From assembly GCA_913020145.1 (NCBI GenBank), contig CAJWAI010000003.1:1243-65242 (forward strand): a stretch of 64,000 nt of DNA, written 5' to 3'. Positions 14,951 through 56,949 of this stretch are shown in pieces. Within the stretch, counting starts at the first letter, position 1; each line of letters opens with the position of its first letter. The position numbers and the translations under genes were made by a program. This DNA comes from an uncultured Gammaproteobacteria bacterium (GTDB taxonomy: Bacteria > Pseudomonadota > Gammaproteobacteria > Magnimaribacterales > TMED112). Under the pieces are notes generated by a model. That model was not told the DNA's origin. It worked only from the letters and a program-made list of their open reading frames with translations, and ran no database searches.

Positions 14951-15688
14951 TTAAGCTTTGCTTACGCCAGAGTCTCTCATAGCTGCATGCCAGATAACTA
15001 ATCCAAATAAGAATTTGTTAACAACATCAGCAAGGTTATATAGTGAGTTCAGGCCAGCAACTTCTGTTCCGTCTCCTGCAATGTAACCCATGTAGTAACC
15101 TATTGGATAGATAATCCAACCAACAGTTACAATCCATTTAATACCATTGAAAGCCATTGCTAGGTTTTCATTTTTAGCAGCTGCGGCAGCTTTTGCTGCA
15201 TCACCGGCCCAGATTAGCCAGATGACATAAGCCCATCCAACTATTCCTATTGCAAAACCGACTTCTGCGCTGTTTTCACCTAACATACCTGCTTCACCCA
15301 TGTATCCTCCAAGGAGCATAACAAGTGAACCTACAAGTAGCTTCCAAAATAAACTTAAACTCACAGCAGTTACTGCTGCAACTATTAAGTAAAATTCTAC
15401 AATCTGTAGAGGGACTGTAATAAGCCAATCTACATATCTAAGCTCAGTTGGTGAACTTGCGTTACCAGCTATGCTTGTGACTTCCCATACTTCTCTCATA
15501 TACATGTAGTGCCAAAAAGCAACAAAACATACGAGACATGCTACGGTAAGCGATGTTTGCCATTCTTTGTTGACTGTGCTTCTCTCCATAAAGAAGAACA
15601 AGCTACCCATCAACATGACGGCTGTGGCTACCCAAAAGGTAAAGCCAGTAAAGTCAGAACTTATGTCATACATAATTCTCTCTCCCAT
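14951..15688 (-). CDS. Proteorhodopsin, proton-pump type (DTE motif), Gln at the spectral tuning position (blue-absorbing type)
   Basis: FWHYMYMR, RYVDWLITVPLQIVEFYL (Asp acceptor, Thr, Glu donor; Q where green variants have L), GYMGEAG, Schiff-base Lys in YNLADVVNKFLFG. The real start is probably the second ATG at 15673, because the first five codons (ATGGGAGAGAGAATT) contain a GGAGAG SD for it. Confidence 0.95.
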   Translation of the reverse strand: MGERIMYDISSDFTGFTFWVATAVMLMGSLFFFMERSTVNKEWQTSLTVACLVCFVAFWHYMYMREVWEVTSIAGNASSPTELRYVDWLITVPLQIVEFYLIVAAVTAVSLSLFWKLLVGSLVMLLGGYMGEAGMLGENSAEVGFAIGIVGWAYVIWLIWAGDAAKAAAAAKNENLAMAFNGIKWIVTVGWIIYPIGYYMGYIAGDGTEVAGLNSLYNLADVVNKFLFGLVIWHAAMRDSGVSKA

Positions 15689-15820: not shown

Positions 15821-15898
15821 GGTCCGGTAGTTCAGTTTGGTTAGAATGCCTGCCTGTCACGCAGGAGGTCGAGGGTTCGAGTCCCTTCCGGATCGCCA
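15821..15898 (+). tRNA. tRNA-Asp (anticodon GTC)
   Basis: Acceptor GGTCCGG/CCGGATC (one G-U), GTAGTTCAGTTTGGTTAGAAT D arm, anticodon stem CCTGC/GCAGG with loop CTGTCAC, T arm GAGGG-TTCGAGT-CCCTT, discriminator G, CCA. Confidence 0.95.
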
Positions 15899-15909: not shown

Positions 15910-16338
15910 ATGTTTGTTGATATAGCTTTACAGACAATACTCGCAGCAATAGTGGGTGGGATTTGGCTTACACCTTTGGTAGTAAGTCCAGCCGCTCGAG
16001 CTAGTTTAGATGATGAATCATTAAGATTCTTTTTAAGAGCTTTCTTTTTTAGATTTCATTTATTTATTGTTCTAATGCTGCTCGCATATTTAAGTATTAT
16101 TTATTTCTTTCAATTAGGGGAGTATGAATTAATTTGGTCAAGCACAAAGAATTTTATGATGCTTGTGTTATTGGGCCTTAACTTTTTTAACTTAATTCTT
16201 GGCTTAACAATAAATAATGCAAAAGTTGATACAAATGGGGCATTTTTTAAGATAGTTCACGGCACAAGTGTTGCTATATTTACAGCAACATCTTTTATCT
16301 CTCTGTATTATTTGATTGAAAAATTTATTTCAACTTAA
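15910..16338 (+). CDS. Small integral membrane protein, first gene of the envelope-modification operon
   Basis: The ORF-track ORF 15790-16338 reads through tRNA-Asp. The plausible start is the ATG at 15910 (MFVDIALQTILAAIVGG...). About 142 aa with 4 hydrophobic segments. Its stop abuts the next start (16338/16339). Confidence 0.6.
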   Translation: MFVDIALQTILAAIVGGIWLTPLVVSPAARASLDDESLRFFLRAFFFRFHLFIVLMLLAYLSIIYFFQLGEYELIWSSTKNFMMLVLLGLNFFNLILGLTINNAKVDTNGAFFKIVHGTSVAIFTATSFISLYYLIEKFIST

Positions 16339-17868
16339 ATGACAGGATTATTTAGAAACATTGTTTTACTAGCTCTATTTGTCTGCTTTGTTCCAATCCT
16401 GTTTCTAGGCATCTTTGATTTAGATGAAGGAGCATTTGCTGCTACATCTCTACAAATGCTAATCGATGAACAATATTTTATTCCTACCATAGGAGATGAC
16501 TTGAGGCTTGAAAAGCCAATTTTGACTTACTGGATTCAGACAATATCTATAAGCATCTTTGGATCGAATGAATTTGCTCTGCGACTTCCATCTTTAATTG
16601 CAGCATTGATATGGGCTATCAGTATTGCAGCTTTCATAAAGGAAGAAGATAGAACAATAAAAGGCACTAATATATTTTTAATCTTTTTTACTCTTCCAGG
16701 CATATTTTTAATAAGCTTTGCTGCGACCGCAGACGCTTTTTTAAACACCTTAATCTCTTTAACTTTTATCTCTCTTTACAAATACAGCAAAAATGAAAAA
16801 GCTTCTCATCTTAATAATGCAGCAATCTTTATTGGCATAGGTTTTCTAGTGAAAGGCTTAACAATTGTTTTTCTAGCTGGAGCAATCTTTTTTCTTTATT
16901 TGCTATTTATTGGCCAAATAAAAATATTTTTCAAAGCAATTATGAGCTATAAGCCATGGGCCATTTTCTTTTTAATAATAATCCCTTGGACAGCAGTAAT
17001 ATTTTTAAGACTTGATTTCGATGCTTTTTCTTACTTATTTTTAGGTCAATCTTTTGGAAGGTTTTCAAATACATTTGAAAGTCATACAGGCCCAGTATAT
17101 TACTACTTAATAATGCTGCCATTTTTAATTCTGCCTTTCTTTACCGATTTTTTAAAAGGGCTTTTCAGTTCAAAATTTAAATCTAATAGATTGGATATGT
17201 TTTTTGGAATCTGGTTTTTATTTGTTCTAATATTTTTTTCCTTCTCAAGCACCAAATTGCCGCACTACTTAATTTATGGTTTAACGCCAGCTGTATATTT
17301 TATTGAGAGGCAGCATTTAAAAACAGCAGGAAAATCTTTATCTATTTTTGCTTTTATCTTTCAAATTCTAATTTGGTCCATGCTTCTAGCATTGCCATTC
17401 TATCTTTCATATTTAATTGAGGTAATGCAAACCTATGAAGCTTCATTAAACGCAATTAATACCTTTGCTAAAGATCTTATCTATCAGGTGCTAATAGGCA
17501 TTATCTTATTAACCATTACCATTTGTTTTTTTCTTAAGTACGACAATGTCAAAGTCAAAAAATTATCTGCTTTAGCCTTTACTATCATATTGTCATTTAA
17601 AATAGCGCCATTTTTGCATTCAGTAACTCAGGGAGACATCAAAGAGTTAGGCCTTTATGCTCGTGATGGTGATAAAGAGGTCTCCATGTATAAGGTTAAT
17701 AAACCAAGCTATGCTTTCTATGCACAAAAAAAATCATTTAGAGGTTTAAGATCTAATTCATTAATTCTTACCAGAAAGGATAAATTAGATTTAGTTGATA
17801 AATCTTTTGAAGTGGTTAAAGAAAGTGAGAATTATTTAATTATTGAAATAAAATCCGATGAAAATTAA
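16339..17868 (+). CDS. ArnT-like GT-C glycosyltransferase (family 39/83, PMT_2-type)
   Basis: 509 aa, polytopic. N-terminal DLDEGAFAATSLQMLIDEQYFIPTIGDDLRLEKPILTYWIQTISISIFGSNEFALRLPS matches the ArnT/PMT signature loop (acidic DE motif, KPPL-YW, NEFA-RLPS). Confidence 0.8.
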   Translation: MTGLFRNIVLLALFVCFVPILFLGIFDLDEGAFAATSLQMLIDEQYFIPTIGDDLRLEKPILTYWIQTISISIFGSNEFALRLPSLIAALIWAISIAAFIKEEDRTIKGTNIFLIFFTLPGIFLISFAATADAFLNTLISLTFISLYKYSKNEKASHLNNAAIFIGIGFLVKGLTIVFLAGAIFFLYLLFIGQIKIFFKAIMSYKPWAIFFLIIIPWTAVIFLRLDFDAFSYLFLGQSFGRFSNTFESHTGPVYYYLIMLPFLILPFFTDFLKGLFSSKFKSNRLDMFFGIWFLFVLIFFSFSSTKLPHYLIYGLTPAVYFIERQHLKTAGKSLSIFAFIFQILIWSMLLALPFYLSYLIEVMQTYEASLNAINTFAKDLIYQVLIGIILLTITICFFLKYDNVKVKKLSALAFTIILSFKIAPFLHSVTQGDIKELGLYARDGDKEVSMYKVNKPSYAFYAQKKSFRGLRSNSLILTRKDKLDLVDKSFEVVKESENYLIIEIKSDEN

Positions 17869-18565
17869 TAGTGATCTTATTTTAGGACTAATATTTTTTG
17901 GTCTTGCATTTAGTTTGAAATTTCTACCAAGCTTTGACATTGCGACACTTAAATTTTTTAACAGTTTTTTATTTAATAGCACTTTTTTCACCTATTTTAC
18001 AGAATTTGGTAATGGCTGGTTCGTCGTTGCCTTAGTTATTCCAGTGCTCTCATTCATATCTTATAAATCTACAACTATGTTGTATGTACCAATACAAGCT
18101 TTAATACTCTCTGGGATATATATAGGTCTAATAATTCAGCTATTGAAAGAAGAAATTTTTCCTTTTACTAGACCAGCTTTAGAAGCAATTGAAGGAATAA
18201 ATTATGTTGAGCCAATATTTCGATACGCTACTTTTCCTAGTGGCCATGCTGCAACAATTTTTGGTGTAATTCTAATTTGGTTGCAGTTAGCTTCACAGGA
18301 AAAACAAAAAATTAGTCGACTAATAACTTTTTCAGCTTTAGGTTTTGCAAGTTTTGTTGCTTTATCAAGAGTAATAATAGCGGCCCATTGGTTTACAGAT
18401 ATTTTGGCTAGTCTTGGATTGGTTTTAATATTGAGATCGACGTTATCATTGGATAAAGTTAAAGCTCATCTTATGGAAGGTAACATAGCTAAATATTTTT
18501 CTTACTTTTTAGTTTTTATAGCTTGGGTAGGCATTATTTTCTTTGATATAACTGAGTATTTTTAA
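17858..18565 (+). CDS. PAP2-family lipid phosphatase (LpxE/LpxF/PgpB-like)
   Basis: Three PAP2 motifs: K-x7-RP (KEEIFPFTRP), PSGH (FPSGHAA) and SR-x5-H-x3-D (SRVIIAAHWFTD). About 6 TM. Confidence 0.8.
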   Translation: MKINSDLILGLIFFGLAFSLKFLPSFDIATLKFFNSFLFNSTFFTYFTEFGNGWFVVALVIPVLSFISYKSTTMLYVPIQALILSGIYIGLIIQLLKEEIFPFTRPALEAIEGINYVEPIFRYATFPSGHAATIFGVILIWLQLASQEKQKISRLITFSALGFASFVALSRVIIAAHWFTDILASLGLVLILRSTLSLDKVKAHLMEGNIAKYFSYFLVFIAWVGIIFFDITEYF

Positions 18566-19092
18566 TGAGTCTAGATATAGAGTTCTCAATTTGGCTTGCT
18601 CAGTTTCAATATTTAGATGGTTTTTTTAGCTTTATTTCTACAAGGTGGTTTGCATTTATTCTTGTACTTCTTGCAGGGATTTACTTCTACTACTTAAAAA
18701 AATTCAAAATCTTTATTTTTATATGTTTGGCAACATCATTTGGAGATTTCACTGGAAATATACTAAAAGAGCTTCTTTCAGATACTCGTCCTTGTTTTGG
18801 ATATAGTGAAATCTTTATCCAAGCGGGTTTAATTGAGCATGAATGCGGTTCTCAGTCTACTGGAATGCCATCAAACCATTCCATTAATTTCTTTCTTTTT
18901 ACTACCTTGTTGTGCCTAACAATAAAAAATAAATTTATATCTTCAATTTTTATAATTTCTTCAGTGTTCGTCGCATTATCTAGAGTTTTTTTAATTAAAC
19001 ATTTACTAAGCCAAGTTATAATAGGAGCATTCATAGGAATTTTCTTAGGGATACTTTTTTATAATTTATTTTACAAATGGATCAAAACGTAG
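18565..19092 (+). CDS. Second PAP2-family lipid phosphatase (variant third motif)
   Basis: K-x6-RP (KELLSDTRP), PSNH (MPSNHS) and SR-x5-H-x3-Q (SRVFLIKHLLSQ), where the final Asp is replaced by Gln. Confidence 0.75.
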   Translation: MSLDIEFSIWLAQFQYLDGFFSFISTRWFAFILVLLAGIYFYYLKKFKIFIFICLATSFGDFTGNILKELLSDTRPCFGYSEIFIQAGLIEHECGSQSTGMPSNHSINFFLFTTLLCLTIKNKFISSIFIISSVFVALSRVFLIKHLLSQVIIGAFIGIFLGILFYNLFYKWIKT

Positions 19093-20045
19093 AAGTTTCA
19101 ATTATCTCACCAGTTTTTAATGAATCTGAAAACATCGAGACCTTTGTTACTCGTGTATTTCAAACTATGCAAGAGAGTGGGCTTAGCTGGGAATTAATCA
19201 TCGTTGATGATGGTAGTACCGATGGATCTAGTGATGCTCTCAAAAGACTATCTCAAGAAAAGTCTGAGCTTAGAGTACTAGTATTATCCAAAAATTTTGG
19301 GCAAACACCTGCAATACAAGCAGGGTTCGATATAGCTAGAGGTAAATACTATGTAACTTTAGATAGCGATCTCCAGAATGATCCAAAAGACATACCAAAA
19401 GTTCTCAATAAGCTTATTGATGAAAAATTAGATCTTGTGGTTGGCTGGAGAAAGAATAGGAAGGACAATTTTTTCTTAAGAAACTTTCCTTCAATGATCG
19501 CCAACAATCTGATAGGAAAAATTACAGGGGTAAAGCTCAACGATTATGGTTGCAGTTTAAAAGCTTACAACGCAGCTATTCTAAAAGAAGTTCGACTTTA
19601 CGGTGAAATGCATAGATTTATTCCAGCATGGATGGCTACAAAAATTTCTCCAGATAAAATTAAACAAATAGAAGTTGATCATCATCCAAGATTGGCTGGC
19701 GTTTCTAAATACGGAATTTTTAGAACTTTCAGAGTTTTTATTGACCTAATATCTGTCTATTTCTTTATGAGATTTTTTAGCAGGCCTGGACATTTTTTTG
19801 GCTTAATAGGATTGATATTAGGTTTTGTCGGCGCAGCAATTCTTATATATTTAGTCTCTATTAAATTGTTCTATGGAATTGATATAGGCGATAGACCCTT
19901 ACTCTTAGCTGGCACTTTACTTGTAGTGGTAGGCGTTCAGTTCATAAGCTTGGGCGTTATTGGGGAAATATTAAGTAGAACTTATTATGCTTCAAGCAAA
20001 GAGAAATCTTACTTAGTGAGATGGGATTCTCATGATGAGCAGTGA
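19077..20045 (+). CDS. GT2 polyprenyl-phosphate glycosyltransferase (ArnC/GtrB/DPM1-like)
   Basis: VSIISPVFNESENI, LIIVDDGSTDGS, TLDSDLQNDP (DXD-type), two C-terminal TM helices as in ArnC/GtrB. Confidence 0.85.
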   Translation: MDQNVEVSIISPVFNESENIETFVTRVFQTMQESGLSWELIIVDDGSTDGSSDALKRLSQEKSELRVLVLSKNFGQTPAIQAGFDIARGKYYVTLDSDLQNDPKDIPKVLNKLIDEKLDLVVGWRKNRKDNFFLRNFPSMIANNLIGKITGVKLNDYGCSLKAYNAAILKEVRLYGEMHRFIPAWMATKISPDKIKQIEVDHHPRLAGVSKYGIFRTFRVFIDLISVYFFMRFFSRPGHFFGLIGLILGFVGAAILIYLVSIKLFYGIDIGDRPLLLAGTLLVVVGVQFISLGVIGEILSRTYYASSKEKSYLVRWDSHDEQ

Positions 20046-21396
20046 AATAAAAAATCTTTTTTTCATTATTTTTTCAGCATTAATTCTAAGAATATTATTT
20101 GATGTTATTAATAGCATGGGTATCCATTATGAAGAGGCTCAATATTGGGTTTGGTCACAGAATCCCTCGTTAAGTTATTTAACAAAAGGACCTTTTATTG
20201 CTAATGCAATAGCAATCTCGGAATGGATTTTTGGCTATGGTTATTTAGGGTTGAAGTTTCTTTCTTTCGATGCTTATGCAGGGACTGCATTAATTATTGG
20301 ATTCTGCGCCTATTTAATTTCAGAAGAAAAAACAGCATTTTATTTAGGGGTTATTTTTACTCTTTTTTCACCTGCAATTTTTGCTCTTGGTGGAGTTGCC
20401 ACAACCGATATATTTCTATTTTTCTTTTGGTCATTATGTTTATTAGGCTATGTAAAATTTTTAAAGACAAAAGATAAAAGATGGTTTTATTTGATAGCTA
20501 TTGGTATTGGTTTTGGCGTGCTAACTAAGCTTTCAATAATATTATTTCCTCTATCTGTTCTGCTTTATTTTGCAATATCAGAATATAGAACATATTTACG
20601 TTCAGTAACTTTATACAAAGCCATGCTAGTTGCTTTAACTTTAGGGTTGCCAATATTAATTTGGAATTATCAAAATGACTGGGCTTCTATTCAGCATGAA
20701 TTTGGACACTTAGTTTCAGATAACCCAACAACAAATCCTGAGGTATTGTTTTTTACTTTACTGATCACCATTCCTTCAATTTTATTTGTGTTGAATAAGA
20801 AGTTTTATCAGTTTGCTCAAAGCAAATTGGTTCAACCAATATTGATTCCAACCTTCTTCGTATTGCTATTCTTTCTCTTTAAAAGCATTGCTGGAAAGAT
20901 TCAATTAAACTGGGCCATACCATTATTTATTAGTTTGATTCCTGTAGTTTCAGCTTTTTTATCTAAATTGCGATTTAAATATCTTGTTTTGAATTTCGCT
21001 GGAATAATTCTTTTATTTGTTTTCTCTAATATTAATTTCACTAAAAACTTTACTCCAAACGACCCAATGCATGCATTAAGAGGTTGGGAATCAGAGGTAC
21101 TTGAATTATTTGGAGATTCACCCTATGACATTATTGTCTCAAATGATTATAAGTTACTATCTCTATCCGCATATTACTTAAATGATAGCCAAAATTTATT
21201 CTTAGATAGCCCGAAGAACTCAAGACTTACTTATTATGATCTTTGGGATAAAGCTATAGAGAAGAATGATGCAATTTTATATGTTTCTTATTCAAATAAA
21301 TCTGTTTTAGATAAGTCTTTAGATTGCTCTTATTTGAATAATGTAAATAATCATTCGAGAAAGCAATTAACTCTGTATACTTGTAAAAAGTTATGA
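20032..21396 (+). CDS. Second ArnT-like GT-C glycosyltransferase (family 39/83)
   Basis: 454 aa, polytopic. YEEAQYWVWSQNPSLSYLTKGPF is the typical DEA-YW-WS loop of PMT_2 proteins. Confidence 0.75.
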   Translation: MMSSEIKNLFFIIFSALILRILFDVINSMGIHYEEAQYWVWSQNPSLSYLTKGPFIANAIAISEWIFGYGYLGLKFLSFDAYAGTALIIGFCAYLISEEKTAFYLGVIFTLFSPAIFALGGVATTDIFLFFFWSLCLLGYVKFLKTKDKRWFYLIAIGIGFGVLTKLSIILFPLSVLLYFAISEYRTYLRSVTLYKAMLVALTLGLPILIWNYQNDWASIQHEFGHLVSDNPTTNPEVLFFTLLITIPSILFVLNKKFYQFAQSKLVQPILIPTFFVLLFFLFKSIAGKIQLNWAIPLFISLIPVVSAFLSKLRFKYLVLNFAGIILLFVFSNINFTKNFTPNDPMHALRGWESEVLELFGDSPYDIIVSNDYKLLSLSAYYLNDSQNLFLDSPKNSRLTYYDLWDKAIEKNDAILYVSYSNKSVLDKSLDCSYLNNVNNHSRKQLTLYTCKKL

Positions 21397-22391
21397 GAAT
21401 AGGGATAGTAGGCGCTGGTAAGTTCGGCTTAGCCTTAGCAAAGATAGCGGCAGAAAAAGAAAATCAAGTATTGCTATATTCTAGAAGAATACACGAAGTA
21501 AATTCTATTAATAATGATGGTAAAAGCCTGTCTGGAGTAGTCTTTCCATCAAATGAAAAAACATCAGCCACAGCAACCACTAAAGATTTAGATAATTGTG
21601 ATGTGCTTTTAATAACTGTCCCAAGCAAAGACTTTAGATCAACAATAGAATCTTTAAATATAGATATACAAACAACCAAGATTGTAAGTTGTGTTAAAGG
21701 TTTTGAAGAGAAAACAGGAAAACTAATGTCAGAGATATTGAAGGATGATTTTGGTATGCCAGAAAATAATATTTTTATTCTTAGTGGACCTAATTTATCG
21801 AAAGAAATATCTGATAAAGAATTAACAGGCACAGTCATAGCTGGCTCAGATAAAGATTTTATAAATCAGTTAAGTAAATCAATAAGCAATAATTACTTTA
21901 TACCTTTTTCAAGCTCAGATAGGTATGGAGTTGAGATGGGTGGCGCCATGAAAAATATCTATGCAATTATTTCAGGTTATTTCCATGAAAAAGGAGTAGG
22001 GGAGAATACAATTGGATTGCTTTTAACTAAAAGCTTAGAAGAGATAAGTCTTTATAGTCATGCTCGTGGTGCAAATGCATCAACATTTCTTGGCCTCTCC
22101 GGAGTGGGAGATTTCTTTTCAACAGCACTATCCCAACATTCAAGAAATTATCAATTTGGAAAATTTTTGGCTATGAATAAAGGATCTGCTGAAGCCTTAG
22201 AAATGGTGAATGATACAGTTGAAGGGTTTTTAACCTCGAAGATTGTTCATTCTGATGCAAAGAAAAGAGGTTTAGACTTAAAAATATTGAATTTTTTAAT
22301 CGAACTATATGAAAATCCTAAATCTTTAGATGAAGCAAAAGAAATTTTTCAAACTGATTCTATAGAAGAAGATAGTAAATTTAATTTTTAA
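21393..22391 (+). CDS. gpsA: NAD(P)H-dependent glycerol-3-phosphate dehydrogenase
   Basis: MRIGIVGAGKFGLALA Rossmann fold, GPNLSKEI, GGAMKNIYAI, NTIGLLLTKSLEE. Confidence 0.9.
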   Translation: MRIGIVGAGKFGLALAKIAAEKENQVLLYSRRIHEVNSINNDGKSLSGVVFPSNEKTSATATTKDLDNCDVLLITVPSKDFRSTIESLNIDIQTTKIVSCVKGFEEKTGKLMSEILKDDFGMPENNIFILSGPNLSKEISDKELTGTVIAGSDKDFINQLSKSISNNYFIPFSSSDRYGVEMGGAMKNIYAIISGYFHEKGVGENTIGLLLTKSLEEISLYSHARGANASTFLGLSGVGDFFSTALSQHSRNYQFGKFLAMNKGSAEALEMVNDTVEGFLTSKIVHSDAKKRGLDLKILNFLIELYENPKSLDEAKEIFQTDSIEEDSKFNF

Positions 22392-24115
22392 ATGAAATCT
22401 TTTTTATTTAGATCAGATTCAATCTCATAATCAAATCCAGTAGAAGTTTTGATATTGTCTTTTGTTATTTTTAAATCTTGTATATCTAAAACATCTTTAT
22501 CGAAGTCATAAATTGGTTTAATGTCACTATTTATAGCTATTTCTTTATTTAATGCTCTTTTTTCTTCTGCTTGTTCTTTATTCTTTATCCATTTAGTGAC
22601 ATCAGTCTTACCATATCTCTTCTCTAATAATCCTTGAGTTAAATCAGCTGAAATAAAAGCACTGGTTGCGTTATTTCCACCAAATCCTTTTGAATTCATA
22701 AAGATTATGTCTTTTCTAGAATCAAATTCTCTGTCTTCTAAGAAGTAATCTAAGTTTTCTGTAAATACATCATCGGCCAACTTAGGTATTGTACAAATTC
22801 CTGTTAATTTCTGACTTTCTACAGCACCCATTGCACACCATATTTGATCCATACCTGCCGCACCCATTGTATGGCCTAATTTTGATTTAACAGAAGATAC
22901 AGGTAAATTTTCAATGCCAAATTCTTTTGCAAAAGTAGACATGATATGAGATTCAGTAATTCTGTTAAGAGGCGTTCCTGTGCCATGAGCAAGAAAAGCA
23001 CTTCTTTCTCTTAATACATTCTCTCCAAAAACCGTTTCAATGTCTTTAAATGTCTTTCCAACTGAGAAATAATTTCCTGCTCCAGGACCAGAAATAGATT
23101 TCTTATTACCATCAGCATTTATATTTACATTAAGAAAACTTCCTCTAATATTTGCGCCTGTTTCCATTGCAAGTCTATCGCTCATTAAAATAGCGAAACC
23201 TGACGATTCTCCACATACCATTCCCATATTGTCACCAAAAGGTCTGCAGTAATTTCTATAGTTCAATTCTTCTCCCTCTCCCAATAAACCTTGAAGAGAT
23301 TTCATTCTTTCATCAGTTGCCATAGCGCCCATAGCAGCAAAACCTATATATGCTGGCGGACCCAAAATTGCTTCTGATGCACCAACAATAACCAACTCAC
23401 TTTTACCATTCTTTATCAGCTCGACCCCAGCATTTAAATTATATAAAGAGGTAGCACATGCACCTATGAAATGACCAGTTATACCAAGACTACCAGTGAC
23501 ATATGCATTAATAAAATCAGCTGGCATTTCTGGCAAAGTAAAGGATATTTGCTTGGATGTAGCTCTTTGACCAAGTGGATGTGATGCAAATAAACCATCA
23601 CCAGAATACCTATCCATATTCATGACTGCACAACCGGCAAAACAACCAACTTTATGCCTGCCATATTGATCAATAATTCCTCTTAGATCTAAACCAGTGT
23701 CAGAAAGAGCATCACTCATACCAACTATAGACATGCCTAGCGCTTTAGGGTGTTGTCTAGAGGCATAATGTGTAGTCGGGTCAAGCTTGAAAGGTAATTG
23801 CGCACTCGCATTTGCAGGCATATCGTAGTCATAACTCCAAAAGGTGTCTCTACAGAATTTATATTCAAGCTTTCGCATTAAGGTGTTATCTAAAACATCC
23901 TTTTCGCTATCTTTTAAAAATTTTTTCAAACCTTTTTCATCAAGATCTTCAGGAATCATTTCACATAGAGATAGTACCGACTTAAGGTAATCCATCTTAT
24001 CCGTATCATTTTGCATTTCATAGATCATTCTCGTGTAACCTAAACTATGAGATGCTCTTCCTGTCGGTGTTAAGCCACCGAAACCAACAATGCAAGGAAT
24101 TGGTTTATTAGCCAT
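22388..24115 (-). CDS. fabY: Extended beta-ketoacyl-ACP synthase, KAS I/II fold, FabY-class (PA5174-like)
   Basis: 575 aa. N-terminal PCIVGFGGLTPTGRAS, FINAYVTGSLGITGHFIGACATSLYNL (active-site Cys), AHGTGTPLN and KLGHTMGAAG (two His), NSKGFGGNNA. Long N- and C-terminal extensions are absent from FabB/FabF. Confidence 0.6.
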   Translation of the reverse strand: MANKPIPCIVGFGGLTPTGRASHSLGYTRMIYEMQNDTDKMDYLKSVLSLCEMIPEDLDEKGLKKFLKDSEKDVLDNTLMRKLEYKFCRDTFWSYDYDMPANASAQLPFKLDPTTHYASRQHPKALGMSIVGMSDALSDTGLDLRGIIDQYGRHKVGCFAGCAVMNMDRYSGDGLFASHPLGQRATSKQISFTLPEMPADFINAYVTGSLGITGHFIGACATSLYNLNAGVELIKNGKSELVIVGASEAILGPPAYIGFAAMGAMATDERMKSLQGLLGEGEELNYRNYCRPFGDNMGMVCGESSGFAILMSDRLAMETGANIRGSFLNVNINADGNKKSISGPGAGNYFSVGKTFKDIETVFGENVLRERSAFLAHGTGTPLNRITESHIMSTFAKEFGIENLPVSSVKSKLGHTMGAAGMDQIWCAMGAVESQKLTGICTIPKLADDVFTENLDYFLEDREFDSRKDIIFMNSKGFGGNNATSAFISADLTQGLLEKRYGKTDVTKWIKNKEQAEEKRALNKEIAINSDIKPIYDFDKDVLDIQDLKITKDNIKTSTGFDYEIESDLNKKDFI

Positions 24116-26795: not shown

Positions 26796-28163
26796 ATGAA
26801 AAATATTCTAGTAGCACTATTGCTTGTTTTCTCCAGTTTCATATTTTCTCAAAGCTATTACAGCTCTAATGCAAAAAGTAATGGTGCGGATAAAGTGCTT
26901 ACTTGGTTGCAGTACATGGCAATAATAGAAGAGGGCATGGCAATCGAATATGGTTCTGCATCTTTTCGAAATAATATTTTAGAAATTAATGATTTGAAAA
27001 TTTCTGATTTTAACAGAGTAGATTTTGATACATTGAATACAGAAAACCTTTCATTGGGCGATTTGATTTCAGAGGGCTCAACTGGGATTGGCGAAGGTAG
27101 AGGCTATAGTCCAGAAGGATCATGGACAGTAAGAAAAATTAAAATAAACCTTAAATATTTTGAAGATCTGCTAAATTTTTCGAAAACGAGAGATATAAAA
27201 TCACTTGAAAAGATGTATAAAACTCAAAGTTTTTTTGAAATAGATGGTTTTAGTGTTCCAATTGACCCAATTCTTGAAGAAGCTATCTTGCCTGATAGCG
27301 AATTAAGCTATACCCAGGAATTAGTATTGAGTAGAGCAGCAAAGTATCTAAACGATATAAGCATTAAGGTCGAAACTAAAGCTAGAGGAAAGTTAAGAGC
27401 AGATGCCATCATGACTGTAAATCTAAATGATGAATTATCTCTACTTTATTCATTAGATTCATCTATAGATGGAGATAGCTTAGGTTATCAATATTTCAAC
27501 ATACTAGAGAAAATAGTAAGTCCATTTGAAGTAGTTGCACAGAATCTTGAGACATTTATATCTGCTACCTCAGATGACTGTCCAAATCTATATAAAAAAA
27601 ATAATCTTGATGCTTGGCTTGCCTATGATCTAGGTGAATACTGCGATTCAGCATATGAACTGCTTGATGAAATTGACCTGGAATCAGAATTTGATGATTT
27701 CGATGATCTGGCCTCTGATAATGAATTATTGCTAATGTCCAATCCACTGGGAAGTAAAATTTATGGCTTCAAAGTAAATCTAAATTGGTCTGATAGAGTT
27801 CTTCGTGATGCTTCTATTTTGTCTGGAGGCGTTATTGATACAACACTTTTAGCTCTTAAAGGTATTTTTGATACTAGATTAAATAAACTAGAGTTTAATC
27901 AGTTACTTTATCAATTTTCTGGACCTGAATTTGGTGCAATAGTCTCTAGCATTTTTCAGGGAGATGAGACTTATAGAGAATATTCAAAATATCAACCAAG
28001 AATTAAAACTTTTGCAAATCGTCCACAGGGGATAGGCATAAGCTTTAAATCTAGGTCAGGAATTGACCAAGATTATCTTCTTTATATCTCTGAAAACCCA
28101 CTATTAATGACCTCATTGCTCGATGATGCAGAATTTGAGCTACTTTTAAACAAAAGAAATTAA
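26796..28163 (+). CDS. Secreted hypothetical protein, no recognisable domain
   Basis: 455 aa. Signal peptide MKNILVALLLVFSSFIFSQS and acidic block DEIDLESEFDDFDDLASDNE. I recognise no motifs. Confidence 0.6.
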   Translation: MKNILVALLLVFSSFIFSQSYYSSNAKSNGADKVLTWLQYMAIIEEGMAIEYGSASFRNNILEINDLKISDFNRVDFDTLNTENLSLGDLISEGSTGIGEGRGYSPEGSWTVRKIKINLKYFEDLLNFSKTRDIKSLEKMYKTQSFFEIDGFSVPIDPILEEAILPDSELSYTQELVLSRAAKYLNDISIKVETKARGKLRADAIMTVNLNDELSLLYSLDSSIDGDSLGYQYFNILEKIVSPFEVVAQNLETFISATSDDCPNLYKKNNLDAWLAYDLGEYCDSAYELLDEIDLESEFDDFDDLASDNELLLMSNPLGSKIYGFKVNLNWSDRVLRDASILSGGVIDTTLLALKGIFDTRLNKLEFNQLLYQFSGPEFGAIVSSIFQGDETYREYSKYQPRIKTFANRPQGIGISFKSRSGIDQDYLLYISENPLLMTSLLDDAEFELLLNKRN

Positions 28164-46173: not shown

Positions 46174-46866
46174 ATGACTTTTTTTCATCCATTAAGCTAT
46201 ACTCAGAAGCTTGAGGAGAAAATTATGAAGAATTTTATATTAAAAATAGTAGGACTCATACTTGTTTTAGTTACGCTTACAGCTTGTGGCGGAGGAAACG
46301 TCAATATGGTAAAAACTGGTGTATTTAATGACTATCAGGGCACTACTGTTGGAGACGCATTTGACAGTTGGAGTATGTGTGAAAACACTTCTTGGACCGA
46401 ATTTCAAACAGAAAATGGTAGAAATATTGTGGAGTATAAGTGTAATGCATCTACACAAGGCTATGACAATTTAATTAATGTACTCAATAGTTTTGATGCA
46501 GCCGTTATAGAGAGTATAACTGAAACGATATGTGCGCCAATTGCAATAGCTCAGCTATATTCAGGTGGACCAGCATGTAAATTTACAATGAAAAGACTCA
46601 AAAGTGTTCTTAGAGATGGAATAACTTATACAGTACAATTTCAAGTAAACCTAGATGATAGCTTTGAAATTTCATATTTGGGAGCTTCAAGCCCTAATGT
46701 TGGAGAAATTAGTTTATGGGAAGCTGATATATTGACTCCAGTAGATTTTTTAGATTATGTCATGTATAACAATGCATACTTGAATGAAACATCAACAGGC
46801 GGACCAGTAGATATTATATCAAGTAATATAGCGACTCTTGGCGATATGGAGCTATTGAATAGATAA
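46174..46866 (+). CDS. Hypothetical lipoprotein, divergent from the TonB receptor
   Basis: The likely true start is the ATG at 46225, preceded by GAGGAG, giving MKNFILKIVGLILVLVTLTACGG (lipobox). It has several Cys and no recognisable domain. Confidence 0.6.
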   Translation: MTFFHPLSYTQKLEEKIMKNFILKIVGLILVLVTLTACGGGNVNMVKTGVFNDYQGTTVGDAFDSWSMCENTSWTEFQTENGRNIVEYKCNASTQGYDNLINVLNSFDAAVIESITETICAPIAIAQLYSGGPACKFTMKRLKSVLRDGITYTVQFQVNLDDSFEISYLGASSPNVGEISLWEADILTPVDFLDYVMYNNAYLNETSTGGPVDIISSNIATLGDMELLNR

Positions 46867-53738: not shown

Positions 53739-53980
53739 AAACCTTTCTTGAACAGAATCTATTAAATCTAGATCTTCATGGCGTAAGACATCATGAAGTA
53801 AAAGTTATGGTTGAAGATTTCATACTAAATAATCAAGAACAATTACCCTTAATAATAATTTGTGGTAATTCATCAAAGATGATTGAACTAGTAAGTCAAG
53901 CTTTAAAAGATATCAGTGTAAATTTTGAAGAAACAAGATACGGTAGAATAAGAGTGAATTCATTAGATGCGCAAACTTAA
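53735..53980 (+). CDS. Small Smr-domain-like protein
   Basis: 81 aa. LDLHGVRHHEVKVMVEDFI ... LIIICGNS resembles the Smr LDLHG / IIHGKG pattern. TTG start overlapping the iaaA stop. Confidence 0.45.
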   Translation: MKTFLEQNLLNLDLHGVRHHEVKVMVEDFILNNQEQLPLIIICGNSSKMIELVSQALKDISVNFEETRYGRIRVNSLDAQT

Positions 53981-55070
53981 AATAATTCAGATTCTCCCAA
54001 CATTGAATACAGGCGGTGTTGAAAGAGGGGTCTTAGATTTCAATAAATATTTAATAGGAAAAGGCCATGAATCATACGTAATATCTAACGGCGGCAGACA
54101 GGTAAAAAATTTAATTGATGATGGGGGTAAGCATATACATTTGCAGATAGCAGAGAAAAGTTTATTTACTCTTTTTCAGGCAAAAAAACTTGCTGATGTA
54201 ATTAATGAAATATCTCCAGATGTAATACATATCAGATCAAGAATCCCAGCCTGGGTTTTACAGCTTTCCAAATTATTTATCAAGAACCCAAGACCTTTAA
54301 TATTTTCGACTTTTCACGGACTATATAGCACACCCTTTTATAGCAGAATAATGGCTAGTTTCGATAGGGTAATTGCTATATCCAAAACAGTTGAAACATA
54401 CATTTATGAAAACTATGAGAGACATTTAAAAAAGCCACCAATGCTTATTTATAGGGGGTCAGACGAATCTTATTTTTCACCTAATTTTGAACCAAAACCT
54501 GGGTATATTGATAATTTCTATAGAAAATTGCCTAATTTATTAAATAAAAAAATTGTTGCTTTTCCAGGAAGACTTTCATCGTGGAAAGGACAAGAATCTT
54601 TTATTAAATTAATCTCTGAATTGCCTGATGATTTTTCTGGACTAATTGTTGGGCCTTATAATAATGCTAAGAAAAAATATTTTAAGCGCTTAAATAAACT
54701 TATCGAGAATTACAACACCAAAAGTAGAGTTTTTTTCTATGACGCAAAGGATGACATTAGAGAAATTTATTACCTGTCTGATCTAGTGATGAATCTTTCT
54801 ACTACACCTGAACCATTTGGACGCACTATTCTTGAAGCAGCAATGATGAACAAAAAAATCATTGGCTGGGATCGAGGTGGTGTTGGCGAAGTTTTAGATA
54901 TGTTCTATCCACAAGGAAAAGTTGAATTTGGTAATTTCAAATCTTTGGCAGAAACTGTGGAGAATCTATCTATTTCAGGAGAAAGACCATCAAATGTATT
55001 CCTTACCTCAGAGCTTATGCATTCTAAAACTGTTTCGTTTTATCTCGACACTCTAGAAAATAAATCTTGA
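53967..55070 (+). CDS. GT4 (group 1) glycosyltransferase
   Basis: KIIQILPTLNTGGVERGV N-terminus. C-terminal EPFGRTILEAAMMNKKIIGWDRGG (E-x7-E region). Confidence 0.8.
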   Translation: MRKLKIIQILPTLNTGGVERGVLDFNKYLIGKGHESYVISNGGRQVKNLIDDGGKHIHLQIAEKSLFTLFQAKKLADVINEISPDVIHIRSRIPAWVLQLSKLFIKNPRPLIFSTFHGLYSTPFYSRIMASFDRVIAISKTVETYIYENYERHLKKPPMLIYRGSDESYFSPNFEPKPGYIDNFYRKLPNLLNKKIVAFPGRLSSWKGQESFIKLISELPDDFSGLIVGPYNNAKKKYFKRLNKLIENYNTKSRVFFYDAKDDIREIYYLSDLVMNLSTTPEPFGRTILEAAMMNKKIIGWDRGGVGEVLDMFYPQGKVEFGNFKSLAETVENLSISGERPSNVFLTSELMHSKTVSFYLDTLENKS

Positions 55071-56931: not shown

Positions 56932-56949
56932 AGATTAAAATAATGATAC

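What the first reader, a model, noticed from the sequence alone, without database searches (positions are those of the whole stretch)
15910..21396. Compact operon with two ArnT-like GT-C transferases, two PAP2 phosphatases and one ArnC/GtrB-like GT2: candidate system for phosphate-free, glycosylated lipid A
Seen: six ORFs plus gpsA lie on one strand with spacing from 0 to -16 nt. The junction 16338/16339 abuts, and overlaps occur at 17858-17868, 19077-19092, 20032-20045 and 21393-21396. The operon begins 11 nt after tRNA-Asp. Both polytopic proteins (509 and 454 aa) carry the ArnT/PMT_2 N-terminal loop signature. Both PAP2 proteins carry the KxRP / PS(G/N)H / SRx5Hx3(D/Q) triad. The GT2 has the DXD core plus two C-terminal TM helices, typical of polyprenyl-phosphate sugar synthases. 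Established: this enzyme logic decorates lipid A in several systems: E. coli/Salmonella ArnC-ArnT, Francisella FlmF-FlmK with LpxE/LpxF, Rhizobium RgtE-RgtD with LpxE/LpxF, and Bordetella LgmA-LgmB. Inference: the cluster is a minimal, self-contained kit to remove the 1- and 4'-phosphates and replace them with sugar. There are no arnA/arnB/deacetylase-type genes, so the donor is probably an unmodified hexose or uronic acid. Two GT-C paralogues suggest two acceptor positions. The leading 142-aa 4-TM protein could be an accessory or flippase component. Together with plcP-agt at 56.9 kb, this would make both membranes phosphorus-sparing. I do not know of a description of such a system in this type of organism, and I cannot verify that from here.
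Basis: partly seen in the sequence, partly recalled or inferred. Interest (0 to 1): 0.75.

Follow-up and report, generated by a model that had tools for sequence, protein, structure and literature searches.

The report
SAR86 lipid A phosphate-to-sugar remodelling operon
A tightly packed operon in an abundant ocean bacterium (SAR86) most likely strips the phosphates from the outer-membrane lipid anchor (lipid A) and puts sugars in their place. This chemistry is already known from rhizobia and Aquifex, but I found no description of it in marine plankton, where phosphorus is scarce.

Summary
After tRNA-Asp, seven same-strand genes abut or overlap: a 142-aa membrane protein, an ArnT-family GT-C (GTC1), two PAP2 phosphatases (PAPa, PAPb), an ArnC/GtrB-like GT2, a second distant GT-C (GTC2), and gpsA.

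The window is SAR86, and the cluster is syntenic across SAR86 genomes. Comparative genomics supports a lipid A reading:
- In 41 of 55 non-SAR86 loci with an intact GTC1 from other phyla, GTC1 sits beside a PAP2 family. That family's best solved relative is Aquifex LpxE, a validated lipid A 1-phosphatase.
- GTC2 sits beside a PAP2 whose best match is the NCBIfam LpxF (4'-phosphatase) model. In one lineage it instead sits beside a PAPb-type PAP2, in the same PAPb-GT2-GTC2 order as here.
- The gene order GT2-GTC1-PAP2 matches Mesorhizobium rgtE-rgtF-lpxE.

The operon therefore looks like two phosphatase/transferase pairs sharing one lipid-sugar donor synthase.

Limits:
- Neither SAR86 PAP2 is LpxF-type.
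- GTC2 is missing from 7 of 19 informative SAR86 loci.
- The sugar is unknown.
- The 142-aa protein is a SAR86-only orphan with no evidence of flippase function.
- RgtD/RgtF orthology could not be tested.

Verdict: a new member of a known kind, of moderate interest. Mass spectrometry of lipid A from the cultured SAR86 isolate could test it, provided that isolate carries the operon.

The parts
15821..15898 (+). tRNA-Asp(GTC), 11 nt upstream of the first ORF. The operon is probably transcribed from the same promoter.
   Evidence: ARAGORN; Rfam tRNA 65.9 bits; sequence.
15910..16338 (+). 142-aa small membrane protein (S142) with 3-4 TM segments. It is a SAR86-specific orphan. Its role is unknown, and a flippase or accessory role is only a guess.
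   Evidence: No Pfam or NCBIfam hit even at E<=1. Only 9 representative clusters among 1.84 billion proteins. 54-78% identical across SAR86 and always directly upstream of GTC1. hhalign against the LPG_synthase_TM family gives probability 0.3%. Hydropathy.
16339..17868 (+). GTC1: ArnT-family (GT-C, PMT_2) polyprenyl-phosphate-sugar-dependent glycosyltransferase. Proposed to glycosylate the dephosphorylated 1-position of lipid A.
   Evidence: Pfam PMT_2 3.6e-16. NCBIfam ArnT 1.4e-31 but below its cut-off. PDB ArnT 5EZM: 1e-12 with the single sequence, 7.9e-44 with the family profile. E. coli ArnT scores 170 bits against the family HMM. ArnT residues K85, K203, R270 and Y345 are conserved in 76/76 sequences, while R58 is Ala in 74/76. 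A PAP2 lies directly downstream in 41 non-SAR86 loci.
17858..18565 (+). PAPa: PAP2 lipid phosphatase of the LpxE-like family that accompanies GTC1. Proposed lipid A 1-phosphatase.
   Evidence: Pfam PAP2 8e-15. 64 bits against the HMM of GTC1-adjacent PAP2s, which itself hits Aquifex LpxE 6EBU at 94.5 bits. hhalign probability 99.4, score 149, against 86 for the LpxF-like family. The profile including PAPa hits 6EBU at 4e-28. K..RP and PSGH are present in all 21 SAR86 loci and SRx5Hx3D in 20 of 21.
18565..19092 (+). PAPb: compact 175-aa PAP2 with invariant PSNH, H-x3-Q and a Cys pair in the periplasmic loop. It is the partner of GT2-GTC2. Proposed second (4') lipid A phosphatase.
   Evidence: Pfam PAP2 1.7e-19. 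AF2 model pLDDT 89.8; best PDB fold is Aquifex LpxE (TM 0.70/0.74), then YodM. Its only non-SAR86 relatives lie in LPG_synthase_TM-PAPb-GT2-GTC2 clusters. Motifs are invariant in 21 loci. No LpxF model hit.
19077..20045 (+). GT2: ArnC/GtrB/DPM-synthase-type polyprenyl-phosphate glycosyltransferase. It makes the lipid-linked sugar donor on the cytoplasmic face.
   Evidence: Pfam Glycos_transf_2 1e-31. NCBIfam ArnC 1.3e-55 full length, below its cut-off. PDB ArnC 9BHC 6.5e-50 and GtrB 5EKP 9e-35, both full length. Two C-terminal TM helices. 45% identical to the Nitrosophilus cluster GT2.
20032..21396 (+). GTC2: second GT-C (PMT_2/PMT), an ancient paralogue only distantly related to ArnT. Proposed to glycosylate the second (4') position. 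It is variably present in SAR86.
   Evidence: Pfam PMT_2 6.5e-15 and PMT 9.5e-10. 28% identity over 142 aa to GTC1. It has its own orthologues: 29% over 399 aa to the Nitrosophilus 482-aa protein and 192 bits to the N_GTC2 HMM. PDB profile hit to ArnT is only 9e-4. Adjacent to an LpxF-like PAP2 in 8 loci. Absent from 7 of 19 informative SAR86 loci.
21393..22391 (+). gpsA (NAD(P)H glycerol-3-phosphate dehydrogenase), overlapping GTC2 by 4 nt. It is a co-transcribed housekeeping neighbour and probably not part of the system.
   Evidence: Pfam and NCBIfam. It follows GT2 directly where GTC2 is missing.

Best explanation
This is a lipid A remodelling operon of the SAR86 clade, built from two phosphatase/glycosyltransferase pairs that share one donor synthase.

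**Proposed steps**
1. The GT2 (19077-20045) loads a sugar from a nucleotide sugar onto undecaprenyl phosphate at the cytoplasmic face. The enzyme class is shown by homology; the sugar is unknown.
2. The lipid-linked sugar is flipped to the periplasmic face by an unidentified flippase. This step is inferred. Elsewhere an LPG_synthase_TM protein adjoins the GT2; in SAR86 the orphan 142-aa protein is the only candidate nearby.
3. After export of core-lipid A, PAPa (LpxE-like) removes the 1-phosphate. GTC1 (ArnT family) then transfers the sugar onto the freed position, as RgtF does after LpxE in Mesorhizobium.
4. PAPb removes the second (4') phosphate, and GTC2, where present, adds a sugar there.

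The assignment of positions is an inference from partner genes in other genomes. SAR86 lineages without GTC2 would make a lipid A that is dephosphorylated at that position but not glycosylated there.

The product would be a lipid A with fewer or no phosphates. Tight coupling to the conserved housekeeping gene gpsA suggests constitutive production.
For: **Domain identities**.

**Organism and synteny**
- The window is SAR86.
- The cluster is syntenic in about 20 SAR86 loci, between proteorhodopsin and gpsA.

**The two GT-Cs**
- They are ancient paralogues, each with its own orthologue in a five-gene cluster of Nitrosophilus labii (Campylobacterota).

**Module structure across 80 genome loci**
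- GT2-GTC1-PAP2 recurs in 41 non-SAR86 loci: Chromatiaceae, Neptunomonas, Vibrio albus, Zhongshania, Gemmatimonadota, Lentisphaeria.
- GTC2-PAP2 forms a second adjacent pair in 8 loci.

**Identity of the partner phosphatases**
- The HMM of the GTC1-adjacent PAP2s hits Aquifex LpxE 6EBU at 94.5 bits, above YodM (47) and PgpB (40). AaLpxE is an experimentally validated lipid A 1-phosphatase (PMC6581854).
- The GTC2-adjacent PAP2 matches NCBIfam LpxF NF045633 over its full length (5.7e-52 and 6.7e-34).
- PAPa groups with the LpxE-like family (hhalign 99.4%).
- PAPb-like PAP2s occur outside SAR86 only in LPG_synthase_TM-PAPb-GT2-GTC2 clusters.
- The PAPb model's best fold match is AaLpxE.
- Catalytic motifs of both PAP2s are conserved in the SAR86 loci.
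- The same LpxE-like PAP2 family pairs with EptA-like genes and dgkA on a Glaciecola plasmid.

**GTC1 active site**
- It keeps ArnT's carrier-phosphate-binding residues but lacks R58, which in ArnT helps orient the lipid A phosphate (residue roles from PMC8306577).

**Literature precedents**
- The gene order equals M. loti rgtE-rgtF(549 aa)-lpxE(271 aa) (PMC5644692).
- O. carboxidovorans has adjacent rgtE, lpxE and rgtF and a lipid A carrying two GalA (PMC7663294).
- Phosphate-free mannosylated lipid A is reported for purple sulfur bacteria (PMC2233673). These are the taxa best represented among GTC1 hits.
Against: - There is no chemical or genetic evidence for SAR86.
- Taken alone, the SAR86 PAP2 profiles do not prefer LpxE. 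PAPa scores YodM 38.7 against AaLpxE 33.8 bits; PAPb scores YodM 46.5 against AaLpxE 27.8.
- PAPb's best NCBIfam hit is an undecaprenyl-diphosphatase, weakly.
- LpxE itself also dephosphorylates C55-PP and PGP (PMC6581854), so housekeeping roles are possible.
- Neither SAR86 PAP2 hits the LpxF model.
- PAPb is retained where GTC2 is lost, so its function does not depend on GTC2.
- GTC2 has no characterised relative here, and core sugars could be its acceptor, as for RgtA-C.
- The window contains no sugar-nucleotide gene or flippase gene.
- RgtD, RgtE and RgtF sequences could not be obtained, so orthology to the characterised enzymes is untested.
Confidence: 0.62

Rival explanations
1. One or both PAP2s are housekeeping lipid phosphatases: undecaprenyl-pyrophosphate recycling and/or phosphatidylglycerol-phosphate phosphatase. 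They would be placed with gpsA in a streamlined genome. The GT2 and GT-C proteins would glycosylate something other than lipid A, and the phosphatases would merely supply Und-P.
For: - PAPb's best NCBIfam hit is the undecaprenyl-diphosphatase SepP (1.9e-5) and PAPa's is PgpB (0.003).
- SAR86-only HMMs score B. subtilis PGP phosphatase YodM at or above AaLpxE.
- AaLpxE itself rescues PGP and C55-PP phosphatase deficiency (PMC6581854).
- gpsA, a phospholipid precursor enzyme, overlaps the cluster.
- PAPb persists without GTC2.
Against: - A polyprenyl-P-sugar cycle regenerates Und-P, not Und-PP, so no dedicated pyrophosphatase is needed.
- PAP2/GT-C adjacency is conserved across phyla in different gene orders.
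- The partner families elsewhere are closest to lipid A phosphatases LpxE and LpxF.
- gpsA is not linked to the module outside SAR86.
Confidence: 0.17
2. The GT-Cs decorate the LPS core or another periplasmic glycan or protein rather than the lipid A backbone, as RgtA/B/C, GtrC or PMT-like enzymes do. One PAP2 may still dephosphorylate lipid A without sugar replacement.
For: - GTC2 is only remotely ArnT-like and hits both PMT and PMT_2.
- Rhizobial RgtA-C of the same superfamily act on core sugars (cited in PMC9393093, reference list).
- GTC2 is dispensable in many SAR86 lineages.
- An LPS-core-like glycosyltransferase cluster lies in the same window.
Against: - GTC2 is adjacent to an LpxF-like or a PAPb-like phosphatase in 10 loci.
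- GTC1 is adjacent to an LpxE-like PAP2 in 41 loci.
- No MIR or PMT_4TMC domains and no GtrA-like gene were found.
Confidence: 0.13
3. This is a classical ArnT-type modification. A sugar is added onto the lipid A phosphates without removing them, masking charge as in polymyxin resistance. The PAP2s would be unrelated.
For: GTC1's closest characterised relatives are ArnT enzymes, and the GT2's closest are ArnC enzymes.
Against: - Both fall far below the equivalog cut-offs (109.7 against 567 bits; 188.6 against 529 bits).
- There are no arnA, arnB, arnD or deacetylase genes.
- ArnT R58 is replaced by Ala in 74 of 76 family members.
- The family is consistently paired with phosphatases.
Confidence: 0.05

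Closest known systems
Rhizobial Rgt/Lpx system: Mesorhizobium loti rgtE-rgtF-lpxE cluster, and Rhizobium leguminosarum RgtD with LpxF (also O. carboxidovorans, Caulobacter)
   Same: The logic is the same. A GT2 makes bactoprenyl-P-GalA. PAP2 phosphatases LpxE and LpxF remove the 1- and 4'-phosphates at the periplasmic face. GT-C enzymes RgtF and RgtD then add the sugar (PMC9393093, PMC7663294). The gene order GT2-GT-C(about 520-550 aa)-PAP2(about 270-290 aa) seen in relatives of GTC1 equals rgtE-rgtF(549)-lpxE(271) (PMC5644692).
   Different: Sequence orthology to RgtD, RgtE and RgtF was not tested because the sequences were not obtainable. SAR86 has a single fused operon with a rearranged order, two LpxE/YodM-like PAP2s and no LpxF-type enzyme, an orphan 142-aa protein, and an unknown sugar.
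Aquifex aeolicus LpxE (aq_1706, PDB 6EBU), and the GalA-substituted, phosphate-free lipid A of Aquifex pyrophilus
   Same: It is the best solved relative of the GTC1-partner PAP2 family (94.5 bits; E=4e-28 with the profile). It is also the best fold match of the PAPb model (TM 0.70/0.74). It is a compact six-helix PAP2 with a periplasmic active site.
   Different: Identity to PAPb is about 19%. AaLpxE has PSGD where PAPa has PSGH and PAPb has PSNH. AaLpxE is trifunctional (lipid A, C55-PP, PGP), so homology does not fix the substrate (PMC6581854).
Francisella FlmF1/FlmF2-FlmK with LpxE/LpxF
   Same: It uses ArnC-like GT2 donor synthases and an ArnT-like GT-C. The 4'-phosphate is removed by LpxF, and mannose is added in a phosphate-free linkage (PMC2233673).
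   Different: A single GT-C (FlmK) transfers both sugars, and GalN is added onto the retained 1-phosphate. The genes are dispersed and a deacetylase is needed. SAR86 has two GT-Cs, one GT2, and no amino-sugar genes nearby.
Enterobacterial ArnC-ArnT (arnBCADTEF)
   Same: GT2 and GTC1 are homologous over their full lengths to ArnC and ArnT. The Und-P-binding residues are conserved.
   Different: Both fall below the equivalog thresholds. There are no arnA/B/D/E/F genes. R58 is replaced. The acceptor is presumably a hydroxyl rather than a phosphate. Phosphatases are part of the cluster.
Xanthomonas arnT-lpxE-eptA cluster next to raxRH (PMC8306577)
   Same: It is a gammaproteobacterial cluster joining an ArnT-like gene of unknown sugar specificity to an LpxE-like PAP2.
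   Different: It is coupled to EptA and a two-component system. It has no second GT-C, no second PAP2 and no adjacent GT2. Its function is likewise only predicted.

Membership tests
ArnT family (GT-C, GT83; Pfam PMT_2) | Significant full-length similarity to ArnT profiles and structure | tested here: met
   GTC1: PMT_2 3.6e-16. The family profile against 5EZM gives 7.9e-44 over about 390 residues. E. coli ArnT scores 170 bits. GTC2 is only marginal (9e-4; 20 bits).
ArnT family (GT-C, GT83; Pfam PMT_2) | Residues binding the undecaprenyl-phosphate carrier (E84, K85, R270, Y345) and K203 | tested here: met
   K85, K203, R270 and Y345 are identical in 76 of 76 GTC1-family sequences. E84 is D or E in 74 of 76. 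Residue roles are from PMC8306577.
ArnT family (GT-C, GT83; Pfam PMT_2) | D55/R58 ion pair that orients the lipid A phosphate acceptor | tested here: not met
   D55 is conserved, but R58 is Ala in 74 of 76 sequences; it is Arg in E. coli and C. metallidurans ArnT.
ArnT equivalog (L-Ara4N transferase) | Score above the NCBIfam equivalog cut-off, and presence of Ara4N donor genes (arnA/B/D) | tested here: not met
   109.7 bits against a cut-off of 567. No arnA/B/D-like genes in the operon or window.
Polyprenyl-phosphate glycosyltransferases (ArnC/GtrB/DPMS/RgtE type GT2) | GT-A catalytic domain with a DXD motif plus two C-terminal TM helices, homologous over its full length to ArnC and GtrB | tested here: met
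   PF00535 1e-31. ArnC structures 6.5e-50 over residues 6-314 and GtrB 9e-35. Two TM helices at 244-262 and 277-295. Below the ArnC equivalog cut-off (188.6 against 529), so the sugar is not assigned.
LpxE (lipid A 1-phosphatase, PAP2) | Tripartite PAP2 motif KX6RP / PSGH / SRX5HX3D | tested here: met
   PAPa: K-x6/7-RP, PSGH, SRx5Hx3D. PAPb: KX6RP, PSNH, SRx5Hx3Q. Present in all 21 PAPb and 20 of 21 PAPa across the SAR86 loci. H. pylori LpxE also lacks the final Asp (PMC6581854).
LpxE (lipid A 1-phosphatase, PAP2) | Closer to a validated LpxE than to PGP or Und-PP phosphatases | tested here: inconclusive
   The GTC1-partner family HMM scores AaLpxE 94.5, YodM 46.6 and PgpB 39.9, and PAPa joins that family (64 bits; hhalign 99.4%). 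SAR86-only HMMs give the reverse: PAPa scores YodM 38.7 against AaLpxE 33.8, and PAPb 46.5 against 27.8. The PAPb fold is best matched by 6EBU.
LpxE (lipid A 1-phosphatase, PAP2) | Removes the 1-phosphate of lipid A | not testable with these tools
   Needs expression in E. coli WBB06 and lipid A mass spectrometry, as was done for aq_1706 (PMC6581854).
LpxF (lipid A 4'-phosphatase; NCBIfam NF045633) | Match to the LpxF model | tested here: not met
   Neither PAPa nor PAPb hits LpxF at E<=0.01. Both score about 22 bits or less against the HMM of LpxF-like PAP2s, and hhalign scores are lower than for the LpxE-like family. By contrast, the PAP2 next to GTC2 in Nitrosophilus and Catenovulum hits LpxF at 5.7e-52 and 6.7e-34, below the 400-bit cut-off.
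Rgt system (RgtE/RgtF/RgtD GalA transferases) | Clustered order rgtE-rgtF-lpxE | tested here: inconclusive
   The order is met in relatives: GT2-GTC1-PAP2 in 30 or more loci, compared with M. loti (PMC5644692). SAR86 is rearranged to GTC1-PAPa-PAPb-GT2-GTC2.
Rgt system (RgtE/RgtF/RgtD GalA transferases) | Sequence orthology to RgtF, RgtD and RgtE | not tested
   Reference sequences could not be reached. The only apparently alphaproteobacterial locus (L085) turned out to be Nevskiales-like. A plasmid tblastn gave only generic ArnT-like hits.
Rgt system (RgtE/RgtF/RgtD GalA transferases) | Supply of UDP-GalA (UDP-glucose dehydrogenase and UDP-GlcA 4-epimerase) | tested here: inconclusive
   An SDR closest to 5U4Q (2e-140) and to B. 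cereus UDP-GlcA 4-epimerase 6ZL6 (7e-47) follows the PAP2 in 8 non-SAR86 loci. No such gene lies in the 64-kb window. The rest of the SAR86 genome was not searchable.
GtrABC O-antigen glucosylation | GtrA-type small flippase (PF04138) next to GtrB and GtrC | tested here: not met
   The 142-aa protein has no Pfam hit at E<=1 and no homologues outside SAR86.
Protein O-mannosyltransferases (PMT, GT39) | PMT N-terminal domain together with MIR and PMT_4TMC domains | tested here: not met
   Only PMT_2 or PMT N-terminal hits were found, with no MIR or PMT_4TMC.

The most novel reading that the evidence does not exclude
SAR86, one of the most abundant bacterial groups in the surface ocean, would constitutively build a lipid A with no phosphate. 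It would do so with a compact operon that fuses two modules of a widespread but uncharacterised system:
- ArnT-like GTC1 with an LpxE-like PAP2.
- A previously unstudied GT-C family (GTC2) with a new PSNH/H-x3-Q PAP2 subtype in place of LpxF.

A lineage-specific 142-aa membrane protein would replace the MprF-like (LPG_synthase_TM) flippase used by other bacteria.

By my own rough estimate (no tool result), a cell of about 1 um2 surface carries several 10^5 lipid A molecules. Their 1- and 4'-phosphates would then equal a quarter to a half of the phosphorus in a 1.25-Mb genome. On that basis the outer membrane would be a real and so far overlooked term in the phosphorus budget of oligotrophic plankton.
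Probability: 0.3. Interest if true: 0.72.

Novelty: new member of a known kind. Interest (0 to 1): 0.5.

Why it matters
Phosphorus sparing in marine bacteria has been studied for phospholipids (PlcP/Agt-type remodelling). Lipopolysaccharide has not had the same attention. A full-text search found no paper in its top-ranked results that links SAR86 with ArnT, LpxE, LpxF or PAP2.

If the operon works as proposed:
[quoted passage not shown] That affects cellular P quota, divalent-cation bridging, susceptibility to phage and cationic peptides, and the endotoxic activity of marine LPS.
- Function could be assigned to a module found in more than 500 genome loci across Gammaproteobacteria, Campylobacterota, Aquificota, Gemmatimonadota and Lentisphaeria. 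This includes a candidate lipid-sugar flippase (LPG_synthase_TM) and an uncharacterised GT-C family.

A SAR86 isolate now exists (PMC11582366), so the prediction can be tested directly.

Tried and rejected
1. **Reaching RgtF through an apparent alphaproteobacterial GTC1 (L085, 'Rhodospirillales bacterium').** Its relatives are Nevskia, Solimonas and other Nevskiales, so it gave no link to Rhizobiales.
2. **tblastn of GTC1 against plasmids, to find Azospirillum or rhizobial rgtF.** This returned only half-length generic ArnT-like hits in Cupriavidus, Ralstonia and Pantoea.
3. **Papers not held in the library.** Brown et al. 2012 and 2013 (rgtA-F) and Meissner et al. 1988 (Chromatiaceae lipid A) could not be read. 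The Chromatiaceae statement therefore rests on the citation in PMC2233673.
4. **The 142-aa protein as a truncated or divergent LPG_synthase_TM flippase.** Rejected: the HMM finds no hit and hhalign gives 0.3%.
5. **The 142-aa protein as ArnE/F- or GtrA-like.** There is no Pfam hit at E<=1. Its structure was not predicted, because only single-sequence input would have been allowed.
6. **PAPb as a diverged LpxF.** Rejected on HMM and hhalign scores.
7. **Sugar-nucleotide, flippase or extra PAP2/GT-C genes elsewhere in the window.** None were found.
8. **Promoter and terminator scan.** Uninformative: fewer promoter-like sites than in shuffles, and the terminator-like hits lie inside ORFs.

Full report
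**1. What is in the sequence**

The + strand between 15.8 and 22.4 kb carries the following:
- tRNA-Asp, 15821-15898
- a 142-aa ORF, 15910-16338
- a 509-aa ORF, 16339-17868
- a 235-aa ORF, 17858-18565
- a 175-aa ORF, 18565-19092
- a 322-aa ORF, 19077-20045
- a 454-aa ORF, 20032-21396
- gpsA, 21393-22391

The junctions are 0, -11, -1, -16, -14 and -4 nt.

Pfam gives PMT_2 for both large proteins, PAP2 for both small ones, Glycos_transf_2 for the 322-aa protein, and nothing for the 142-aa protein.

NCBIfam places the 509-aa protein nearest ArnT (1.4e-31) and the GT2 nearest ArnC (1.3e-55). Both are far below the equivalog cut-offs.

Hydropathy shows two C-terminal helices in the GT2 and at least 9-10 helices in the GT-Cs.

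**2. Organism and conservation**

The proteins occur on many marine metagenome contigs, including a 191-kb contig.

A scan of one genome per species found the closest loci in gammaproteobacterial MAGs and in SAGs and MAGs labelled SAR86, including the closed TMED112-A1 genome. The window's roughly 33% G+C, proteorhodopsin gene and TonB-dependent receptors fit SAR86.

The cluster sits in the same place in about 20 SAR86 species-level loci: proteorhodopsin on one side, gpsA, a long ketoacyl synthase and folD on the other.

GTC2 is missing from 7 of 19 informative loci. In four of these gpsA follows the GT2 directly. Both PAP2 genes, with intact motifs, are always kept.

**3. The two GT-Cs are different families**

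GTC1 and GTC2 share only 28% identity over 142 residues. Each has its own orthologue in a GT-C/PAP2/PAP2/GT-C/GT2 cluster of Nitrosophilus labii (Campylobacterota).

The GTC1 family aligns with C. metallidurans ArnT over about 390 residues (E=7.9e-44). E. coli ArnT scores 170 bits against its HMM.

The ArnT residues that bind the carrier phosphate (K85, R270, Y345; E84 as D or E) and K203 are conserved in all 76 family members examined. R58, which pairs with D55 to orient the lipid A phosphate in ArnT (roles from PMC8306577), is alanine in 74 of 76. This fits, but does not prove, an acceptor without phosphate.

GTC2 is only marginally similar to ArnT (E=9e-4).

**4. Gene neighbourhoods elsewhere give the functional clue**

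I called and classified ORFs in 80 genome loci.

- **Module A.** GT2-GTC1-PAP2 recurs in Chromatiaceae, Neptunomonas, Vibrio albus, Zhongshania, Nevskiales, Gemmatimonadota and Lentisphaeria. Of 55 non-SAR86 loci with an intact GTC1, 41 have a PAP2 directly downstream.
- **Module B.** GTC2-PAP2 lies next to module A in Catenovulum, Alteromonadaceae, Halieaceae, Gallionellaceae, Photobacterium and Cellvibrionaceae.

An HMM of the module-A PAP2s hits Aquifex aeolicus LpxE (6EBU) at 94.5 bits, well above YodM (46.6) and PgpB (39.9) (with the tool's own profile, 4e-28). AaLpxE is a validated lipid A 1-phosphatase from a genus whose lipid A carries GalA instead of phosphate (PMC6581854).

The module-B PAP2 is a separate family. 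It matches the NCBIfam LpxF (lipid A 4'-phosphatase) model over its full length: 5.7e-52 for Nitrosophilus and 6.7e-34 for Catenovulum, both below the equivalog cut-off.

Module A has the same order and gene sizes as M. loti rgtE-rgtF-lpxE (PMC5644692). O. carboxidovorans, whose lipid A has two GalA residues, has rgtE, lpxE and rgtF adjacent (PMC7663294).

Two further genes often travel with the modules:
- An LPG_synthase_TM (MprF-flippase-like) protein adjoins the GT2 in 24 loci.
- An SDR follows the PAP2 in 8 loci. It is closest to the K. pneumoniae entry 5U4Q and to B. cereus UDP-glucuronate 4-epimerase. This hints at GalA as the donor sugar in those taxa.

The same LpxE-like PAP2 family sits with EptA-like genes and dgkA on a Glaciecola plasmid. 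An arnT-lpxE-eptA cluster has been noted in Xanthomonas (PMC8306577).

**5. Where the SAR86 proteins fit**

*PAPa* belongs with the module-A, LpxE-like family: 64 bits, and hhalign 99.4% with score 149 against 86 for the LpxF-like family.

*PAPb* is a compact PAP2 with invariant PSNH, H-x3-Q and a loop Cys pair.
- It is not LpxF-like.
- Its AF2 model (pLDDT 89.8) is best matched by AaLpxE (TM 0.70/0.74), then YodM.
- Its only relatives outside SAR86 (31-34% identity, 99 bits, same variant motifs) lie in LPG_synthase_TM-PAPb-GT2-GTC2 clusters of an unidentified marine lineage with 63% G+C.
- That is the same PAPb-GT2-GTC2 order as in SAR86.

The SAR86 operon therefore reads as GTC1-PAPa (module A without its own GT2) fused to PAPb-GT2-GTC2 (a variant of module B), with one GT2 serving both.

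**6. The 142-aa protein**

- It has no family hit even at E<=1.
- It has only nine representative clusters among 1.84 billion proteins, apparently confined to SAR86-type sequences.
- It has no similarity to LPG_synthase_TM.
- It is better conserved (54-78% identity) than the enzymes, and always lies upstream of GTC1.

Its role is unknown. A flippase function is a guess based on position alone.

**7. Mechanism, and what is shown versus inferred**

*Shown by homology*
- a polyprenyl-phosphate sugar synthase
- an ArnT-family transferase
- a second GT-C
- two PAP2 phosphatases with intact catalytic motifs

*Shown by comparative genomics*
- each GT-C family is coupled to a PAP2
- the partner families are those of lipid A 1- and 4'-phosphatases

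*Inferred*
- lipid A is the substrate in SAR86
- PAPa and GTC1 act at C-1, and PAPb and GTC2 at C-4'
- the sugar is GalA or a hexose
- expression is constitutive

*The main rival.* The LpxE/YodM-type PAP2s may serve Und-PP or PGP phosphatase housekeeping in a streamlined genome. SAR86-only profiles score YodM at least as high as AaLpxE, and LpxE enzymes are multifunctional (PMC6581854).

**8. Novelty**

Replacement of lipid A phosphates by sugars through LpxE/LpxF plus RgtE/RgtF/RgtD-type enzymes is established in Rhizobiales. It is inferred for Aquifex and Caulobacter (PMC7663294, PMC9393093). Francisella and purple sulfur bacteria have phosphate-free mannose on lipid A (PMC2233673).

I found no paper linking SAR86 with such genes.

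New here are:
- the host lineage
- the fused architecture
- the PAPb subtype as GTC2 partner
- the orphan 142-aa gene

I file it as a new member of a known kind. Interest is moderate because of the ecological weight of SAR86 and the link to phosphorus economy.

**9. Other features in the window**

The plcP/agt-like pair at 56.95-58.7 kb has the expected Metallophos and GT4 domains. It follows a set of LPS-core-like glycosyltransferases.

Noticed in passing
window 14951-15688 (-): A proteorhodopsin gene (Bac_rhodopsin in the syntenic loci) lies divergently, immediately upstream of tRNA-Asp and the operon. This adjacency is conserved in SAR86 loci L001 and L003.
   Followed up: partly
window 22388-24115 (-): A 575-aa atypical beta-ketoacyl synthase with weak ketoacyl-synt N and C hits and a long C-terminal extension. 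It is convergent with gpsA, overlaps it by 4 nt, and is syntenic across SAR86.
   Followed up: no
window 53967-58712: Two GT4 glycosyltransferases and an ELM1-like (PF06258) protein form an LPS-core-like set. They are followed by a Metallophos (257 aa) plus GT4 (330 aa) pair with the architecture of plcP-agt phospholipid-to-glycolipid remodelling genes, then a rhomboid protease.
   Followed up: partly
window 59716-61983 (+): An MMPL-family (RND-like lipid exporter) protein of 755 aa lies just downstream of the plcP-agt-like pair.
   Followed up: no
window 26796-28163 (+) and 46174-46866 (+): ORFs of 455 aa and 230 aa with no Pfam hit at the thresholds used.
   Followed up: no
GTC1 family (window 16339-17868; loci L001-L085): ArnT Arg58, which pairs with Asp55 to orient the lipid A phosphate, is Ala in 74 of 76 family members. 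All carrier-binding residues are kept. This may be a sequence signature separating transferases that act on a hydroxyl from those that act on a phosphate.
   Followed up: partly
L088 6037-10079 and L090 6037-10076: An unidentified marine lineage with 63% G+C carries LPG_synthase_TM, a PAPb-like PAP2 (190 aa), a GT2 and a GTC2-type GT-C as a four-gene cluster near lgt and thyA. These are the only non-SAR86 relatives of PAPb.
   Followed up: partly
L004 5315-11349 (Nitrosophilus labii AP022826): A complete GTC2, LpxF-like PAP2, LpxE-like PAP2, GTC1, GT2, LPG_synthase_TM cluster in a cultured deep-sea Campylobacterota species. This organism is tractable for testing the whole system.
   Followed up: partly
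L070 9464-10024 (Desulfurobacterium MAG): The PAP2 next to GTC1 has PSAD in place of PSGH. This mirrors the His-to-Asp change (PSGD) reported for Aquifex LpxE and suggests an Aquificota-wide variant.
   Followed up: no
L092 6875-13862 (Glaciecola sp. plasmid pGLAAG01): An LpxE-like PAP2 is followed by two sulfatase-family (EptA-like) genes, two hypothetical genes and a diacylglycerol kinase, flanked by IS elements. This looks like a mobile lipid A phosphoethanolamine module in a marine Alteromonadales plasmid.
   Followed up: no
SAR86 loci L003, L014, L018-L020, L022, L023: These SAR86 lineages lack GTC2 at the locus but keep PAPb with intact motifs. They would be predicted to make a differently decorated lipid A, giving a natural presence/absence contrast for testing.
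   Followed up: partly
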